Positions 978 through 4,141 of a stretch of 4,141 nt of DNA are shown here, piece by piece (position 1 is the stretch's first letter; the number at the start of each line of letters is the position of its first letter). The notes below the pieces were generated by a model. It had not been told where the DNA came from. It saw only the letters and a program-made list of their open reading frames with translations, and ran no database searches. This DNA comes from a virus (lineage: Duplodnaviria; Heunggongvirae; Uroviricota; Caudoviricetes), in IMG/VR virus record IMGVR_UViG_2671181106_000002; one strand, 5' to 3'. The position numbers were made by a program, and so were the translations under genes.

Positions 978-1006
978 GGGCGCCAGAAATGGCGCCTTTT
1001 TTATTT
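978..1006 (+). terminator. Rho-independent terminator downstream of J (tJ-like)
   Basis: Perfect 6-bp GC-rich inverted repeat GGCGCC (979-984) / GGCGCC (991-996) with a 6-nt loop AGAAAT, followed directly by TTTTTTATTT (997-1006). It lies 20 nt after the J stop codon. Confidence 0.7.
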
Positions 1007-1017
1007 GTGGAGTGAAT

Positions 1018-3078
1018 ATGGCAGTACAGATTTCAGGCGTGCTGAAAGACGGTGCAGGAAAACCAATACAGAACTGTACTATTCAGCTCAAAGCAAAGCG
1101 TAACAGCACCACGGTACTGGTGAACACGGTGGCCTCTGAAAATCCGGATGAAGCCGGGCGTTACAGCATGGATGTTGAGTATGGCCAGTACAGCGTCACC
1201 CTGCTGGTTGAAGGTTTTCCGCCTTCACATGCCGGGACCATTACCGTCTATGAAGGCTCCAGACCAGGTACGCTGAATGATTTTCTCGGTGCCATGACGG
1301 AAGATGATGTCATGCCGGAGGCATTGCGTCGTTTTGAGGTAATGGTGGAGGATGTGGCACGCAACGCTGAAGCCGCCTCTCAGAGCGCAGCGGCAGCAAA
1401 GAAATCAGAAACAGCAGCGGCATCGTCCAGGAACGCGGCGAAAACATCAGAGACGAATGCAGGTAACAGCGCGAAAGCGGCAGCTTCTTCAAAAACAGCC
1501 GCACAAAACGCAGCAACAGCGGCAGAACGTTCAGAGACAAATGCCCGTGCGTCAGAAGAAGCCTCCGCAGACAGTGAAGAGGCTTCCCGCCGTAATGCAG
1601 AGTCAGCCGCTGAAAATGCCGGAGTCGCCACCACAAAAGCGCGGGAGGCTGCAGCAGACGCAACAAAGGCCGGGCAGAAAAAGGATGAGGCTCTGTCGGC
1701 AGCGACACGAGCTGAAAAGGCGGCAGACCGCGCAGAAGCCGCAGCGGAAGTGACTGCAGAGCCCTATGCGAATATAGTGCCGCCGCTGCCTGATGTGTGG
1801 ATACCGTTTAACGATTCACTGGATATGATTGCGGGTTTTTCTCCGGGCTATAAAAAAATAGCTATTGGTGACGATGTGGTTCAGGTCGCCAGTGATAAAC
1901 AGGTTAATTTCAGTCGCGCATCAACGGCAACATATATCAACAAATCTGGCGAACTGAAAACGGCGGAAATTAATGAGCCGCGATTTGAGTGTGATGGCCT
2001 GCTTATTGAGGGACAAAGAACGAACTACATGCTCAATTCGGAAAGTCCAGCCAGCTGGGGGAAGTCATCAAACATGGATGTGCCCGAAACCGGGACGGAT
2101 AGTTTTGGTTTTACTTATGGAAAGTTTGTCTGCAACGATTCTCTGGTTGGGCAAACTTCGGCTATTAATATGGCATCAATTGCTGCAACAAAGTCAGTTG
2201 ATGTCTCAGGCGATAACAAGTACGTGACAACCTCATGCCGTTTTAAAACAGAACGACAGGTAAGGTTACGTATACGGTTTGATAAGTATGATGGTAGTGC
2301 AACAACTTTTCTTGGCGATGCGTACATTGATACGCAAACGCTTGAAATTAATATGACAGGTGGTGCTGCCGGCAGAATTACGGCACGAGTCAGGAAGGAT
2401 AAGACCACGGGCTGGATTTTTGCAGAGGCAACGATTCAGGCAATTGATGGTGAGTTAAAAATAGGCTCTCAGATACAGTATTCTCCTGAGCAGGGTGGGG
2501 CAACAGTATCTGGTGACTATATTTATCTTGCCACCCCACAAGTAGAGAATGGGCCGTGTGTATCATCATTTATTATTTCAGGAGGCAGCGCAACGACAAG
2601 AGCCAGTGATTTGGTTAGTATCCCCACCAGAAATAATCTTTATAAGTTACCATTTACTTTTTTACTTGAGATTCATAAAAACTGGGATATTGCACCAAAC
2701 GCCGCACCCCGCGTGTGGGATATAGCAGCAGCCAATACCGGGCAATCAGCAATTGCAGCAATCAACAGAGGTAGTGGTAAGTTATATATGAGTCTGTCAA
2801 ACCCTTCAGGCTCGTATGTTAATAGCGCAGCGACAGATGTATTTGCAGAGAAAACCACATTTGGATGTATTGCAAAAGCTGATGGTCACTTTCATGTGGT
2901 GACAAATGGTAAAGCGGTTAATGAAGTTTATTGTGAATATAATGGCGTGACCGCTGATAAAAATATCCGATTTGGAGGGCAGACGAATACTGGAGAACGA
3001 CATCTGTTTGGCCATATTCGCAATTTCCGCATATGGCATAAAGAATTAAATGACAGGCAATTAAAAGAGGTCGTATGA
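1018..3078 (+). CDS. stf: Side tail fibre protein (Stf-like) with mosaic C-terminal receptor-binding module
   Basis: 686-codon ORF. ATG at 1018 is preceded by GGAG (1009-1012) with a 5-nt spacer; the track's ORF begins 6 nt earlier at an in-frame GTG (1012). N-terminus MAVQISGVLKDGAGKPIQNCTIQLKA...GRYSMDVEYGQYSV...FPPSHAGTITVYE resembles the conserved N-terminal domain of lambda Stf / lambdoid side tail fibres as I recall it. It is followed by an Ala/Ser/Glu-rich region with KTSETNA / RSETNA motifs, also Stf-like. The C-terminal ~440 aa are unrelated to the Gly/His-rich lambda Stf C-terminus. Stop TGA at 3076-3078. Confidence 0.9.
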   Translation: MAVQISGVLKDGAGKPIQNCTIQLKAKRNSTTVLVNTVASENPDEAGRYSMDVEYGQYSVTLLVEGFPPSHAGTITVYEGSRPGTLNDFLGAMTEDDVMPEALRRFEVMVEDVARNAEAASQSAAAAKKSETAAASSRNAAKTSETNAGNSAKAAASSKTAAQNAATAAERSETNARASEEASADSEEASRRNAESAAENAGVATTKAREAAADATKAGQKKDEALSAATRAEKAADRAEAAAEVTAEPYANIVPPLPDVWIPFNDSLDMIAGFSPGYKKIAIGDDVVQVASDKQVNFSRASTATYINKSGELKTAEINEPRFECDGLLIEGQRTNYMLNSESPASWGKSSNMDVPETGTDSFGFTYGKFVCNDSLVGQTSAINMASIAATKSVDVSGDNKYVTTSCRFKTERQVRLRIRFDKYDGSATTFLGDAYIDTQTLEINMTGGAAGRITARVRKDKTTGWIFAEATIQAIDGELKIGSQIQYSPEQGGATVSGDYIYLATPQVENGPCVSSFIISGGSATTRASDLVSIPTRNNLYKLPFTFLLEIHKNWDIAPNAAPRVWDIAAANTGQSAIAAINRGSGKLYMSLSNPSGSYVNSAATDVFAEKTTFGCIAKADGHFHVVTNGKAVNEVYCEYNGVTADKNIRFGGQTNTGERHLFGHIRNFRIWHKELNDRQLKEVV
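1354..1750 (+). repeat. Low-complexity Ala/Ser/Glu-rich degenerate repeat region inside stf (fibre shaft)
   Basis: The protein segment ...EAASQSAAAAKKSETAAASSRNAAKTSETNAGNSAKAAASSKTAAQNAATAAERSETNARASEEAS... has recurring GCx/TCx/GAx codons and repeated DNA words (tcagagacGaatgc at ~1447 and tcagagacAaatgc at ~1533). The region is open in several frames on both strands, which explains the overlapping shadow ORFs 1352..1753 (+), 1310..1708 (-) and 1380..1634 (-). Confidence 0.7.
2540..3075 (+). other. Probable concanavalin A-like / LamG-like lectin domain at the Stf C-terminus (domain annotation inside stf)
   Basis: The C-terminal segment ...GHFHVVTNGKAVNEVYCEYNGVTADKNIRFGGQTNTGERHLFGHIRNFRIWHKELNDRQLKEVV follows the characteristic end pattern of LamG/ConA-like jellyroll domains (core strand 'HxxVVxxG', then 'xxFxGxIxxxRIY/WxxxLxxxEI/L'). 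This is motif-level recognition only and the domain start is approximate. Confidence 0.45.
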
Positions 3079-3353
3079 AAGATTTAACTTTGAAGTTTCA
3101 TGACAAACTGCAGTTTAAGGCCTTCCTGTCATCTCTTGGCTGGGCGGAAGATGAAGACCTCCAGAATAAACTGTTAGTTGATGAAATTGGTTTCACCTAC
3201 ACAGAAACAGGGGTAACAGAAGAGGGAGAACCTGTCTGTATCCGGAATGATGGTTATTTTGTCAACATTCGCATTCTTGATGACTTGTTTGATGTTTCTG
3301 TATTCTCTGATTATGTCGTGGAGCTGGAAACACCGCTTCGGGAATGGAGCTGA
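3075..3353 (+). CDS. Hypothetical small acidic protein (92 aa), translationally coupled to stf; function unknown
   Basis: The ATG at 3075-3077 overlaps the stf stop (ATGA overlap). AAGAGG (3064-3069) lies 5 nt upstream. The ORF ends at TGA 3351-3353. The product MKDLTLKFHDKLQFKAFLSSLGWAEDEDLQNK... is acidic with no hydrophobic segment. Its AT-rich composition matches the 3' part of stf. It does not resemble the lambda Tfa N-terminus as I recall it. Confidence 0.7.
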   Translation: MKDLTLKFHDKLQFKAFLSSLGWAEDEDLQNKLLVDEIGFTYTETGVTEEGEPVCIRNDGYFVNIRILDDLFDVSVFSDYVVELETPLREWS

Positions 3354-3360
3354 AAGGAGG
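3354..3360 (+). promoter_or_regulatory. Shine-Dalgarno sequence for the downstream membrane-protein ORF
   Basis: AAGGAGG at 3354-3360, then a 5-nt spacer (AAATA) and ATG at 3366. It sits immediately after the orf92 stop, giving an operon-like arrangement. Confidence 0.8.
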
Positions 3361-3365
3361 AAATA

Positions 3366-3806
3366 ATGGATATAAGCCCCTTACTTCATGCACTTTGTGC
3401 TGTGGCTGCGCAGATACTGGTTGGTCTTTTTACCGGAAACTGGGCTTACGGAGCGATAGCCGGTTGTACGTTCTTCATTGCGCGTGAACATACCCAGGCA
3501 GAATATCGCTGGATTGAAATGTTCGGGCATGGCAAGCGAATGAATATGCCGTGGTGGGGCGGTTTTGATCCGCGTGCTTGGGATGTGGCAAGCCTGATGG
3601 ATTTTGCTGTGCCGGTGGTGGCGTGTCTGCTGGTCTGGCTGTTGGTTAATCGTGGGCGAAAAAAGGTGAGCTGTATATGCAACGGAGGAAGAAACCCCGT
3701 TGCTGGAAGCCAGGAAAAAGTATCGGGTGTTGCTGTCCTCGGATGTTGTGCTAATTGGGTGATAACAGATCCTGTGTATGGGAGTTTCCCTTTTTGCGTG
3801 CGTTGA
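3366..3806 (+). CDS. Hypothetical small membrane protein (predicted 2-3 transmembrane segments); C-terminal extent uncertain
   Basis: Strong RBS. Hydrophobic stretches at about residues 8-40 (LHALCAVAAQILVGLFTGNWAYGAIAGCTFFIA) and 73-95 (WDVASLMDFAVPVVACLLVWLLV) are followed by basic NRGRKK. The GC-richer composition differs from orf92. The final ~45 codons (VSCICNGGRNPVAGSQEK...FCVR) have an atypical Cys/Gly-rich composition and overlap the 3' end of the convergent permease gene, so the true C-terminus may be shorter or the ORF may be junction-derived. Confidence 0.6.
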   Translation: MDISPLLHALCAVAAQILVGLFTGNWAYGAIAGCTFFIAREHTQAEYRWIEMFGHGKRMNMPWWGGFDPRAWDVASLMDFAVPVVACLLVWLLVNRGRKKVSCICNGGRNPVAGSQEKVSGVAVLGCCANWVITDPVYGSFPFCVR

Positions 3807-4141
3807 TGCTGGTAACGGCAAACGTCATGATGAACAAAACCGCGAATAAGACGACAATCGTCGGAGCTGGTGCGCTGTCGATAAAAAAGGACAACCAGAC
3901 ACCAGTCATTGACACTATTACCGATATGCCAGTCGCCAGTAGGAGCGCAATATGAAAGCGTTGTGTCAGGAGTACCGCAATGGCGCCAGGCGCAATGAGC
4001 AGAGAAATGGAGAGAATGATACCTACCGCTTTCAGCGTCGCCACAATGGTCAGAGAGACCATGCACAGCAGCCCATAATGCAGCCATCTCGTATGCAAAC
4101 CGCTTACCTGCGCCTGTTGATAATCAAAGCTAAACTGCATA
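3751..4141 (-). CDS. sitD: ABC-3 family metal (Mn2+/Fe2+) transporter permease, C-terminal part; SitD-like (5' end lies beyond the window)
   Basis: The minus-strand ORF is open to the window edge, with stop TAG (complement of 3751-3753). The translation ...LHTRWLHYGLLCMVSLTIVATLKAVGIILSISLLIAPGAIAVLLTQRFHIA...FFIDSAPAPTIVVLFAVLFIMTF... has the characteristic C-terminal pattern of ZnuB/MntB/SitD-type permeases (compare ZnuB ...VGALIITSLLIIPAATAR...YDTPAGPSVVLCAALLFIL). sit operons are known to lie next to lambdoid prophage DNA in E. coli/Shigella. The sitD assignment is from memory, not a search. Confidence 0.65.
   Translation of the reverse strand, partial: MQFSFDYQQAQVSGLHTRWLHYGLLCMVSLTIVATLKAVGIILSISLLIAPGAIAVLLTQRFHIALLLATGISVIVSMTGVWLSFFIDSAPAPTIVVLFAVLFIMTFAVTSINARKKGNSHTQDLLSPN

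What the first reader, a model, noticed from the sequence alone, without database searches (positions are those of the whole stretch)
3075..3806. Two-gene cassette (acidic 92-aa protein plus small membrane protein) at the fibre-distal end: candidate undescribed exclusion/defence or fibre-accessory module
Between the side tail fibre gene and the host-type sit locus sit two tightly packed ORFs with strong ribosome-binding sites: a soluble acidic 92-aa protein and a 146-aa protein with 2-3 predicted transmembrane segments. Neither resembles the Tfa chaperone that normally follows a lambdoid stf gene. The tail-fibre-distal end of lambdoid prophages is a known moron/hotspot position (Lom, Cor and HK97 gp15-type superinfection-exclusion proteins and defence genes sit in or beside tail modules). 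A small membrane protein paired with a small cytoplasmic protein fits a superinfection-exclusion or abortive-infection pair, but also a chaperone plus unrelated moron. I cannot place either protein in a family from sequence alone.
Basis: partly seen in the sequence, partly recalled or inferred. Interest (0 to 1): 0.65.

Follow-up and report, generated by a model that had tools for sequence, protein, structure and literature searches.

The report
Fibre accessory gene plus unrelated membrane gene
The two small genes are real and conserved, but they are not a defence pair: one is the fixed trailing gene of a phage tail-fibre module, and the other belongs to a very widespread, unstudied family of small membrane proteins that follow receptor-binding genes in many phages.

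Summary
The window is the tail-fibre end of a phage-21-type prophage of E. coli. It is 97% identical to Escherichia phage 21 and 99.9% identical to an ExPEC chromosome. Both ORFs exist with strong ribosome-binding sites and evolve under purifying selection. They are phage 21 CPT_21_23 and CPT_21_24.

The "146-aa" protein is naturally 97 aa. Here a TGA-to-CGA change at 3657 removes the stop, an allele seen in 77 of 1739 matching E. coli records. sitABCD is phage cargo, not a host locus.

orf92 followed a homologous fibre C-terminal module, with overlapping stop and start, in all 73 non-redundant loci. These include strictly virulent phages that lack the membrane gene. Its subtype tracks whether a distal fibre gene follows. 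It is most likely a fibre assembly or joint protein.

orf97 belongs to an uncharacterised three-helix membrane family of 442 clusters with no Pfam, PADLOC or PDB match. The gene sits directly after tail-fibre or tailspike genes of sipho-, myo- and podoviruses across Proteobacteria, and has non-phage chromosomal copies. Its function is unknown. A superinfection-exclusion or envelope-modifying role is the best guess.

A relic of the missing tfa gene lies at about 3679-3735. The paired-cassette idea is not supported.

The parts
978..1005 (+). Intrinsic terminator between J and stf (context)
   Evidence: Hairpin GGGCGCCAGAAATGGCGCCT followed by a T-run. The same site is annotated as a terminator in phage 21.
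1018..3078 (+). Side tail fibre gene stf. The mechanical ORF starts at GTG 1012; the likely true start is ATG 1018. It has an N-terminal anchor (PF08400), an Ala-rich coiled coil, a GTA-head-spike-like shaft and a C-terminal LamG/ConA-like lectin tip.
   Evidence: PF08400 E 5e-67, NF048003 E 9e-15, Laminin_G_3 at residues 562-683, phrog_1419 and phrog_5939. Equals CPT_21_22 of phage 21. GC is 56% in the N part and 43% in the C part.
2695..3075 (+). LamG-type lectin tip of Stf, with a hypervariable interior and a conserved last ~35 residues (IRFGGQ..G.RHLFGH.RN.RIWHK.L)
   Evidence: Alignment of 18 fibre C-termini. Identity of this segment ranges from 29% to 100% while orf92 stays conserved.
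3067..3070 (+). Shine-Dalgarno (GAGG) of orf92, inside the end of stf
   Evidence: Read from the sequence.
3075..3353 (+). orf92, equal to phage 21 CPT_21_23. It is the conserved trailing gene of the fibre module and a probable fibre assembly or joint protein.
   Evidence: phrog_1361 E 3e-42. 73 of 73 non-redundant loci have the fibre gene ending at its start. Present in 143 phage records, including virulent phages. AF2 pLDDT 90, small alpha/beta fold. dN/dS 0.31.
3354..3360 (+). Shine-Dalgarno (AAGGAGG) of orf97
   Evidence: Read from the sequence.
3366..3656 (+). orf97 proper, equal to phage 21 CPT_21_24. A 97-aa three-helix membrane protein with the conserved motif RE..QAEYRW...MPWWGGF
   Evidence: phrog_1443 E 7e-58 over residues 1-96 of 97. 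577 clusters at 90% identity and 442 at 50%. AF2 pLDDT 93. dN/dS 0.18. Conserved columns.
3657..3659 (+). Codon 98: CGA here, TGA stop in phage 21 (stop-loss mutation)
   Evidence: C in the window against T in phage 21 at position 3657. Exact allele in 77 of 1739 E. coli records.
3660..3806 (+). Non-conserved 49-codon readthrough tail of the 146-aa ORF. Its last 56 nt overlap the 3' end of sitD on the other strand.
   Evidence: No family member carries this tail.
3679..3735 (+). Relic of the 3' end of a tail-fibre-assembly (tfa) gene; the frame from 3661 reads ATEEETPLLEARKKYRVLLSS. It also accounts for a sub-threshold Rfam IS009 match at 3595-3755.
   Evidence: Translation compared with an annotated Tfa fragment of phage 2G7b. 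The 76 nt at 3660-3735 are 93-100% conserved after orf97 homologues. Rfam RF02111 scores 51 bits against a gathering score of 117.
3751..4140 (-). 3' part of sitD, from the phage-borne iron/manganese transporter operon sitABCD (context, convergent)
   Evidence: PF00950 E 6e-26. Annotated as sitD in E. coli and as CPT_21_25 in phage 21.

Best explanation
The two ORFs are separate genes of a phage-21-type prophage that happen to be neighbours here.

(1) orf92 belongs to the lateral tail-fibre module.
- It is translationally coupled to an Stf whose C-terminal half is a GTA-spike-like shaft ending in a LamG lectin tip.
- Most likely (inferred, not shown) it acts in fibre assembly, or forms the joint or cap at the end of this proximal fibre.
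- In related phages a distal fibre with a conserved N-terminal docking peptide is encoded directly after it. Phage 21 and this window lack that distal fibre.

(2) orf97 is a 97-aa inner-membrane protein. Three helices are predicted, and a strongly conserved polar cluster and Trp-rich loop lie at one membrane face.
- Its family is encoded directly downstream of receptor-binding genes in many tailed phages.
- Its mechanism is unknown. The most likely role (inferred) is to act on a conserved envelope or inner-membrane component of the infected or lysogenic cell. That could block genome entry by superinfecting phages or alter the cell surface.

The copy in this window has lost its stop codon and sits in a degraded prophage, so it may no longer work.
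For: Identity:
- The window is 97.3% identical to phage 21 and 99.9% to an ExPEC chromosome, where the prophage at icd is decayed (IS4 in J, most genes missing).

orf92 and the fibre:
- In 73 of 73 non-redundant loci the upstream gene ends at the orf92 start (offset 0 or -3). Its last ~420 aa are homologous to Stf residues 265-688.
- orf92 shares the low GC of the fibre C-module.
- Homologues occur in virulent Tequintavirus, Warwickvirus and Nonagvirus phages, between a proximal and a distal fibre gene.
- orf92 type A (at least 89% identity) never has a distal fibre gene after it. Type B (50-57%) always does.
- The distal fibres share a conserved ~25-aa N-terminus.
- The BASEL paper describes Bas32 Gp22 as a proximal fibre with a galectin-like tip and Gp24 as the distal fibre attached to it (PMC11990801).

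Independence of the two genes:
- IMG/VR holds 439 stretches for orf97 against 53 for orf92.
- Nearly identical orf97 (at least 95%) sits behind different fibre sets, sometimes after a terminator.

orf97 follows receptor-binding genes:
- P22-like tailspike.
- P2/HP1-like fibres.
- Tfa of phiHAP-1.
- Citrobacter tailspike.
- Between the tailspikes of an Ackermannviridae-like contig.
- Of 48 upstream neighbours in environmental viral contigs, 24 are pectate-lyase-type tailspikes, and the 25 most frequent PHROG families among them are mostly tail spike, tail fibre or tail protein families.

Family constraint on orf97:
- 60-64% identity between E. coli and Comamonas copies.
- E41 and W72 are invariant; H8, R40, Q44, A45, E46 and P83 are nearly so.
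- dN/dS is 0.18.
Against: - No experiment or annotation assigns a function to either family. PHROGs lists both as unknown, and Pfam, NCBIfam, PADLOC and PDB give no match.
- orf92 stays conserved while the lectin tip is swapped. It therefore does not co-evolve with the tip, and the conserved island could partly reflect recombination linkers.
- For orf97 as an exclusion factor:
  - No promoter-like site lies upstream in the window or in phage 21. In type-B lambdoids only a terminator precedes it, so expression in lysogens is doubtful.
  - It occurs in an apparently virulent phage genome.
  - Chromosomal non-phage homologues exist in Aeromonas and other bacteria.
- The fibre, orf92-like, orf97-like order recurs in Comamonas and Pantoea and in a phage-plasmid. 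Some functional link between the two genes therefore cannot be fully excluded.
Confidence: 0.6

Rival explanations
1. One reading: orf92 and the membrane protein work together as one two-component superinfection-exclusion or abortive-infection module.
For: - The genes are tightly packed, 12 nt apart, each with its own strong ribosome-binding site.
- The adjacency recurs at 62%/62% identity in the phage-plasmid PhiR41_1.
- An orf92-like protein (phrog_18574) precedes orf97 homologues in Comamonas and Pantoea prophages.
Against: - At least 73 of 143 phage genomes with orf92 lack orf97, since orf97 is in only 70 records. All three virulent examples inspected lack it nearby.
- Hundreds of orf97 homologues have no orf92: after tailspikes, after P2-type fibres, and in chromosomal copies.
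- A fibre gene and a terminator separate the two genes in type-B lambdoids.
- GC content differs.
- No PADLOC match.
Confidence: 0.07
2. orf97 is a surface-conversion factor. It would be a small membrane protein that interferes with a polysaccharide (O-antigen, capsule or ECA) biosynthesis or export enzyme, so that phages using glycan-binding fibres or tailspikes adsorb less well. From my own knowledge, this is analogous to the small hydrophobic polymerase inhibitors encoded beside the tailspike or seroconversion genes of phages such as D3 and epsilon15.
For: - The gene sits at the classical seroconversion position: after the tailspike and before int in the P22-like phage Gally.
- Upstream neighbours are mostly polysaccharide-depolymerase tailspikes or glycan-binding fibres.
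- Conserved polar residues lie at one membrane face.
Against: - No enzyme domain and no homology to any known conversion protein.
- Nearly identical copies occur in strains and phages with different fibres, and family members occur in bacteria with quite different surface glycans.
- No promoter was detected in the lambdoid context.
Confidence: 0.18
3. orf97 serves the phage's own late lytic programme, for example as a holin- or antiholin-like lysis-timing factor or a release factor, rather than protecting the host.
For: - It is the last gene of the late operon, with no promoter of its own in phage 21 or the window. It can be reached only by antiterminated readthrough in type-B lambdoids.
- It occurs in a virulent-type Ackermannviridae-like genome.
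- From my own knowledge, small membrane genes next to fibre genes are holins in some podoviruses.
- One distant member gives a weak Phage_holin_8 hit, E 0.004.
Against: - Cross-class sequence conservation of about 60% between E. coli and Comamonas copies, with fixed motifs, is unlike holins.
- The C-terminal tail is short and not highly charged.
- It is not next to an endolysin in phage 21, Gally or the P2-like prophages.
- Chromosomal non-phage homologues exist.
Confidence: 0.12
4. In this particular window both ORFs are functionless leftovers of a decayed prophage, kept only because they lie beside the selected sitABCD cargo.
For: - In the near-identical chromosome the prophage is a remnant: partial lysis genes, J cut by IS4, and no head or replication genes between essD and J.
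- orf97 has lost its stop codon, and PGAP marks it as a pseudogene.
- With no virion to build, a fibre accessory protein has no role.
Against: - stf and orf92 are intact and differ from phage 21 by only a few substitutions.
- A C-terminal extension need not inactivate a membrane protein.
- This concerns only this copy. It is compatible with the best explanation for the families.
Confidence: 0.4

Closest known systems
Escherichia phage 21 (OL657228) genes CPT_21_23 (hypothetical protein) and CPT_21_24 (putative membrane protein)
   Same: Same genes in the same order: J, terminator, stf, 92-aa gene, membrane gene, convergent sitDCBA. The region is 97.3% identical, and orf97 differs by one residue apart from the stop codon.
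   Different: Phage 21 has TGA at codon 98, giving a 97-aa protein; the window has CGA, giving 146 aa. The window's closest chromosomal match is a degraded prophage.
Lateral tail-fibre locus of Tequintavirus IrisVonRoten (Bas32): Gp22 proximal fibre with galectin-like tip, Gp23 (92 aa), Gp24 T-shaped distal fibre (PMC11990801)
   Same: The Gp23 position is occupied by a 50%-identical orf92 homologue. It overlaps the end of a fibre whose C-terminal module is homologous to the window's Stf.
   Different: Bas32 is virulent, has a distal fibre gene after the 92-aa gene, and has no orf97. The paper does not discuss a role for the 92-aa protein.
Lambda-type Tfa tail-fibre assembly chaperones (Pfam Caudo_TAP)
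   Same: orf92 occupies the position directly after stf and has a plausible fibre-assembly role.
   Different: No sequence match. orf92 is half the size, and no Tfa structure appears among the fold hits. A true tfa relic lies separately at 3679-3735.
T4 long-tail-fibre joint and assembly proteins gp35, gp36, gp57A and gp38 (from my own knowledge)
   Same: A working analogy only: small proteins encoded among fibre genes that form a joint between proximal and distal half-fibres, or that chaperone trimer assembly.
   Different: No homology was tested or found. Whether orf92 is present in virions is unknown.
Small inner-membrane superinfection-exclusion proteins such as HK97 gp15, T4 Imm and P22 SieA (from my own knowledge)
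   Same: orf97 is a small, membrane-embedded, phage-encoded protein located in or beside the tail genes.
Rfam IS009 (RF02111), a candidate sRNA associated with prophage sequence
   Same: A sub-threshold match at 3595-3755 (51 bits, E 6e-10).
   Different: The score is below the gathering score of 117. The matched part carries almost no consensus structure. The conserved stretch reads as the 3' end of a tfa gene.

Membership tests
Tfa / Caudo_TAP tail-fibre assembly chaperones | Sequence match to the Pfam or NCBIfam Tfa models | tested here: not met
Tfa / Caudo_TAP tail-fibre assembly chaperones | Gene directly downstream of, and co-inherited with, the fibre gene it serves | tested here: met
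   orf92 overlaps the stop of the fibre gene in 73 of 73 non-redundant loci.
Known anti-phage defence systems (PADLOC-DB v2) | Match to any defence protein model | tested here: not met
   No family found for either protein at E up to 10.
Two-gene defence or abortive-infection cassette | The two genes co-occur and are co-inherited as a unit | tested here: not met
   orf92 occurs without orf97 in virulent phages. orf97 occurs without orf92 in most contexts. Other genes or a terminator lie between them in type-B lambdoids.
Inner-membrane superinfection-exclusion proteins (HK97 gp15 / T4 Imm type) | Small integral inner-membrane protein | tested here: inconclusive
   Three hydrophobic helices are predicted with pLDDT 93. 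Localisation and topology are not shown. The positive-inside count disagrees with the TMHMM note in the phage 21 record.
Inner-membrane superinfection-exclusion proteins (HK97 gp15 / T4 Imm type) | Expressed from the prophage, or early in infection | tested here: inconclusive
   No promoter-like site upstream in the window, phage 21 or a type-B lambdoid. There is a candidate promoter in the P22-like phage Gally. These consensus scans are weak evidence.
Inner-membrane superinfection-exclusion proteins (HK97 gp15 / T4 Imm type) | Blocks genome entry of incoming phage | not testable with these tools
   Needs plaquing, adsorption and DNA-entry assays.
Cor / Llp-type lipoproteins that mask outer-membrane receptors | Lipoprotein signal peptide with a conserved lipobox cysteine | tested here: not met
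   An IAGC motif at residues 31-34 is conserved only among close relatives. The Cys is lost in the wider family, and there is no positively charged N-region.
Holins | Small membrane protein with a charged C-terminal tail, encoded beside an endolysin | tested here: not met
   The C-tail is 1-6 residues with about 0.5 K/R on average. Neighbours are fibre, tailspike, sit, int or sheath genes, not endolysins. One weak holin_8 hit among 78 members.
PHROG families phrog_1361 (orf92) and phrog_1443 (orf97) | Full-length profile match | tested here: met
   E 3e-42 over 1-91 of 92, and E 7e-58 over 1-96 of 97. Both families are annotated as unknown function.
Rfam IS009 (RF02111) | Score at or above the family's gathering threshold | tested here: not met
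   51 bits against a gathering score of 117.

The most novel reading that the evidence does not exclude
The orf97 family may be a new, very widespread class of accessory protein linked to receptor-binding genes.
- It covers phrog_1443 and its distant relatives: at least 442 clusters at 50% identity.
- It is present in about a third of complete E. coli genomes and in at least 560 IMG/VR contigs.
- It is a small inner-membrane protein that phages of all three tail types carry directly behind their fibre or tailspike genes.
- It may act on a conserved envelope component to exclude other phages or remodel the surface.
- It may have been recruited from a cellular gene that is still found in Aeromonas and other Proteobacteria.
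Probability: 0.3. Interest if true: 0.7.

Novelty: new variant of a known kind. Interest (0 to 1): 0.4.

Why it matters
The finding as posed, a new two-gene defence cassette, does not hold, and both genes are already deposited as hypothetical proteins of the classical phage 21.

Two points are still useful.

First, a 92-aa protein is an invariant but unstudied part of a lateral-fibre module. That module is shared by temperate lambdoids and by virulent T5-like, Drexlerviridae and Queuovirinae phages used for host-range engineering. Knowing whether it is a chaperone, a joint or a cap matters for swapping fibres.

Second, the 97-aa membrane protein belongs to a large family with no Pfam model. 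It is found in about one third of complete E. coli genomes and sits consistently behind receptor-binding genes. That makes it a cheap, well-defined candidate for a new exclusion or surface-conversion mechanism.

The work also corrects the local annotation:
- sitABCD is phage cargo.
- The 146-aa ORF is a stop-loss allele.
- A tfa relic marks where an older stf-tfa module was replaced.

Tried and rejected
- Pfam, NCBIfam and PADLOC scans of both proteins gave nothing. A Pfam scan of 78 diverse orf97 relatives gave only scattered weak hits, such as the PhoR N-terminus at E 0.0035.
- PDB sequence profiles gave nothing.
- Fold searches:
  - orf92 against BFVD returned only uncharacterised phage proteins.
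  - The AFDB libraries were unavailable.
- The profile search of 1.8 billion representatives found no longer fusion proteins that could hint at function. All members listed are 58-146 aa.
- Direct hhalign of the orf92 alignment against the Comamonas 95-aa and 188-aa neighbours was weak (E 0.01 and 0.5). The link rests on both matching phrog_18574.
- Pfam on ten downstream neighbours of environmental orf97 homologues gave nothing.
- Literature searches for phage 21 with sit, for the peptide motif, and for phage 21 side tail fibre returned no papers.
- The DT57C structure paper concerns different fibre proteins, LtfA, LtfB and LtfC. The paper on co-transfer in lambdoid phages does not mention fibres.
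- The NC-SV prophage paper covers the same icd site, but it assigns protection to an sRNA.
- Lipoprotein and holin readings of orf97 were considered and rejected; see the membership tests.
- Folding of 3655-3760 on either strand is not unusual, with z-scores of -1.3 and -1.7. I do not propose an RNA element there.

Full report
**What the window is.** The 4141-bp window carries, on the + strand:
- the 3' end of the tail-tip gene J (144-959);
- an intrinsic terminator (978-997);
- a 686-688-aa side tail fibre gene (1012/1018-3078);
- a 92-aa ORF (3075-3353);
- a 146-aa ORF (3366-3806).

The 3' part of sitD lies on the - strand (3751-4140). The window is 99.9% identical to an ExPEC chromosome and 97.3% identical to Escherichia phage 21. 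In phage 21 the same genes are annotated as central tail fibre, terminator, side tail fibre, hypothetical protein CPT_21_23 and putative membrane protein CPT_21_24. The convergent sitDCBA genes follow as CPT_21_25 to 28. The sit operon is therefore cargo of the phage, not a host locus. In the chromosomal match the element sits beside the icd remnant, the phage 21 attachment site. It is badly decayed: partial lysis genes are joined to a J gene cut by IS4.

**Check of the observation.** Both ORFs and their Shine-Dalgarno sequences are present: GAGG at 3067-3070 and AAGGAGG at 3354-3360. orf92 is acidic, with pI 4.17. Homologues of both evolve under purifying selection, with median dN/dS of 0.31 and 0.18. 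The 146-aa length is an artefact of one mutation. Position 3657 is C where phage 21 has T, which turns the TGA stop after codon 97 into CGA.
- PHROG family phrog_1443 is 97 positions long.
- Relatives are mostly about 90-115 aa.
- Among non-redundant close loci, 56 end at 97 aa and 2 at 146 aa.
- Only 77 of 1739 matching E. coli records carry the exact stop-loss sequence.
- PGAP marks this copy as a pseudogene.

The extra 49 codons run through intergenic DNA and 56 nt of antisense sitD.

**orf92 belongs to the fibre module.** I examined 73 non-redundant loci with an orf92 homologue, drawn from phage genomes, IMG/VR contigs and bacterial genomes.
- In every one the upstream gene ends 0 or 3 nt past the orf92 start. 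Its last ~420 residues are homologous (29-100% identity) to Stf residues 265-688. That region is a shaft related to GTA head-spike fibres followed by a LamG/ConA-like lectin domain.
- orf92 and this fibre half share low GC (42-43%), against 56% for the Stf N-terminus and 53% for orf97.
- The lectin domain is hypervariable inside, but its last ~35 residues are conserved.
- orf92 homologues occur in 143 deposited phage genomes. In the strictly virulent phages IrisVonRoten (Tequintavirus), tunzivis (Drexlerviridae) and JenP1 (Nonagvirus), the gene lies between this proximal fibre gene and a second fibre gene.
- The BASEL paper describes the Bas32 proteins on either side. Gp22 is a proximal fibre with a protruding galectin-like domain, and Gp24 is a T-shaped distal fibre attached to it. 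The paper says nothing about the 92-aa Gp23 (PMC11990801).

Two subtypes exist. Type A (at least 89% identical to the window) is never followed by a distal fibre gene. Type B (50-57%) always is, with distal genes of about 230, 350 or 574 codons. These distal fibres share a conserved N-terminal ~25 residues (MATSTVIPxDIxxLKxDVS...) and then diverge. The conserved end of Stf, orf92 and the conserved start of the distal fibre thus form one conserved island between two variable receptor-binding regions.

AlphaFold gives a confident small alpha/beta fold (pLDDT 90). It has no informative structural neighbour. I infer a fibre assembly, joint or cap role. A lysogeny or defence role is unlikely for a gene that is translationally coupled to fibre genes in virulent phages.

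**orf97 is a separate, much larger family.**
- The 97-aa protein has 577 clusters of relatives at 90% identity, against 47 for orf92.
- It has 442 clusters at 50% identity in a library of 1.8 billion representatives. The members listed are 58-146 aa, and none carries an added domain.
- It gives 439 to more than 560 confirmed stretches in IMG/VR, against 53 for orf92.
- Its 3' region is present in 1734 of 5426 complete E. coli genomes.
- No Pfam, NCBIfam, PADLOC or PDB match exists.
- AlphaFold predicts three helices (4-23, 26-52, 74-96) with pLDDT 93.
- Across the family E41 and W72 are invariant. H8, R40, Q44, A45, E46 and P83 are nearly invariant, within the motif G-R-E-x-x-Q-A-E-Y-R-W ... 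M-P-W-W-G-G-F.
- E. coli and Comamonas copies are 60-64% identical.
- Topology is unresolved. The positive-inside count puts the conserved loop in the cytoplasm, while the TMHMM note in the phage 21 record puts it in the periplasm.

**Where orf97 homologues sit.** Nearly identical copies (at least 95%) lie behind different fibre sets:
- directly after orf92 type A: 42 of 80 loci;
- after orf92 type B plus a distal fibre: 32 of 80;
- with no orf92 at all: 6 of 80.

In type-B lambdoids an intrinsic terminator lies between the distal fibre gene and orf97. More distant homologues follow these genes:
- the tailspike of the P22-like phage Gally, before int;
- the fibre of a P2/HP1-like prophage in Leclercia;
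- fibre H plus a 75-aa ORF in E. coli P2-like prophages, before a DNA invertase and the sheath gene;
- Tfa in Halomonas phage phiHAP-1;
- a tailspike in Citrobacter;
- a J-like giant protein in Comamonas.

One homologue lies between two tailspike genes on a 160-kb contig. The baseplate region of that contig is about 95% identical to Salmonella phage pSal-SNUABM-02 (161 kb), and most other matches are Ackermannviridae-type phages of about 155-160 kb.

Of 48 non-redundant upstream neighbours in environmental viral contigs, 24 carry a pectate-lyase-type tailspike domain. Most of the others match tail spike, fibre or tail PHROGs. There are also clearly non-phage chromosomal copies. In Aeromonas the gene lies beside pirin. 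Other species-representative genomes have housekeeping upstream neighbours such as NAD-dependent DNA ligase.

**Are the two genes ever linked?** Partly. The phage-plasmid PhiR41_1 has Stf, orf92 (62%) and orf97 (62%) in the same order. In Comamonas and Pantoea prophages, a fibre protein of the same PHROGs (5939/1419) is followed by a 95-188-aa protein whose N-terminal ~90 residues match phrog_18574. An orf97 homologue comes next. orf92 itself matches phrog_18574 over its full length, at E 1.7e-6. Direct profile comparison with these proteins is weak. I read this as orf97 tending to occupy the slot after the last gene of whatever receptor-binding module is present. In this fibre type that last gene is orf92. 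A functional tie cannot be fully excluded.

**Traces of history.** The 76 nt after the natural orf97 stop (3660-3735) are 93-100% conserved behind orf97 in lambdoids, whatever follows. In the frame from 3661 they read ATEEETPLLEARKKYRVLLSS. This is the conserved C-terminal motif of tail-fibre assembly proteins; an annotated Tfa fragment in phage 2G7b reads LLEAWNKYRVLLNRVDTS. It marks the right-hand joint where an older stf-tfa module was replaced. The same stretch explains a sub-threshold Rfam match to the candidate sRNA IS009 (51 bits against a gathering score of 117). The region does not fold unusually well.

**Mechanism.**
- Shown: gene identities, linkage patterns, selection, predicted folds and the stop-loss mutation.
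- Inferred: orf92 acts in fibre assembly or as the joint or cap of the proximal fibre (confidence about 0.7 that it is fibre-related).
- Inferred: orf97 is a membrane protein acting on a conserved envelope component.

Among specific roles for orf97, I rank superinfection exclusion or entry block first (about 0.35), surface conversion next (about 0.2), and a lytic-cycle role third (about 0.12). Three points argue against simple prophage-expressed exclusion:
- no promoter-like sites in the lambdoid context;
- the copy in a virulent-type genome;
- the cellular homologues.

The copy in this window may be inactive.

**Verdict.** Both genes are already deposited as hypothetical proteins of a classical phage. 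What is new is the characterisation of two uncharacterised families. The membrane family is the more interesting because of its size and its consistent position behind receptor-binding genes.

Noticed in passing
window 3660-3735 (Rfam match 3595-3755): A relic of the 3' end of a tfa tail-fibre-assembly gene (ATEEETPLLEARKKYRVLLSS) lies just after the natural orf97 stop. It is 93-100% conserved behind orf97 homologues in lambdoids. The same stretch gives a sub-threshold Rfam IS009 hit (51 bits against 117).
   Followed up: yes
window 3751-4140 (- strand); L002 5386-8835: sitABCD, usually treated as a chromosomal or plasmid virulence-associated iron/manganese transporter, is carried inside the phage 21 genome. 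It lies convergent to the late operon. In ExPEC it remains beside a decayed phage-21-type prophage at icd.
   Followed up: partly
window 1012-1020: The mechanical ORF starts at GTG 1012. The Pfam fibre N-terminal domain starts at residue 3, and the phage 21 annotation uses the ATG equivalent to 1018, so the true start is probably ATG 1018 (686 aa).
   Followed up: partly
window 1360-1780 (Stf residues ~117-255): An alanine-rich, low-complexity coiled-coil stretch (repeated AAxSxxxA / SETNA-like units) joins the conserved N-terminal anchor to the exchangeable C-terminal module. GC drops from 56% to 43% at about position 1800, which suggests a recombination joint.
   Followed up: no
L003 3918-4955, L005 5289-7013, L006 4292-4966, L007 4289-5344, L190 5918-6958: Distal fibre genes that follow type-B orf92 share a conserved ~25-residue N-terminus (MATSTVIPxDIxxLKxDVS) and are otherwise unrelated in length and sequence. 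This looks like a universal docking peptide.
   Followed up: partly
L191-L195 (E. coli P2-like prophages), about 5700-7000: The orf97 homologue lies between fibre gene H (plus a 75-aa ORF) and a DNA invertase (Resolvase) gene. In L195 the tail gene block after the invertase is in the opposite orientation, which suggests an invertible region.
   Followed up: no
L154, L161 5432-5995; L150 5484-5996: In Comamonas and Pantoea prophages the orf92-like domain (phrog_18574) is fused to a second ~90-aa domain (phrog_6034, unknown function). The fusion gene is followed within 2-3 nt by an orf97 homologue.
   Followed up: partly
L197 6001-6297: An orf97 homologue lies between two tailspike genes on a 160-kb contig assigned to Salmonella. 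Its baseplate region is about 95% identical to Salmonella phage pSal-SNUABM-02, so the contig is probably a virulent-type Ackermannviridae-like phage genome. Another such phage (KFSST3) has only an unannotated half-length remnant.
   Followed up: partly
L186 7001-7309 (Aeromonas rivipollensis); also L138, L140, L144: Chromosomal, non-phage orf97 homologues lie downstream of a pirin gene in several Aeromonas species. In L186 the homologue is convergent with a RIO1-type kinase gene and two lipid A acyltransferase genes.
   Followed up: no
window 3384-3551 (orf97 residues 7-62): There is weak similarity to the N-terminal transmembrane region of the sensor kinase PhoR (PF11808; E 0.037-0.085, best family member 0.0035). 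It is probably only hairpin-type hydrophobic similarity.
   Followed up: no
L001 2212-7060: In the near-identical ExPEC chromosome, J is interrupted by an IS4 element, and the prophage lacks head, replication and most lysis genes between essD and J.
   Followed up: no
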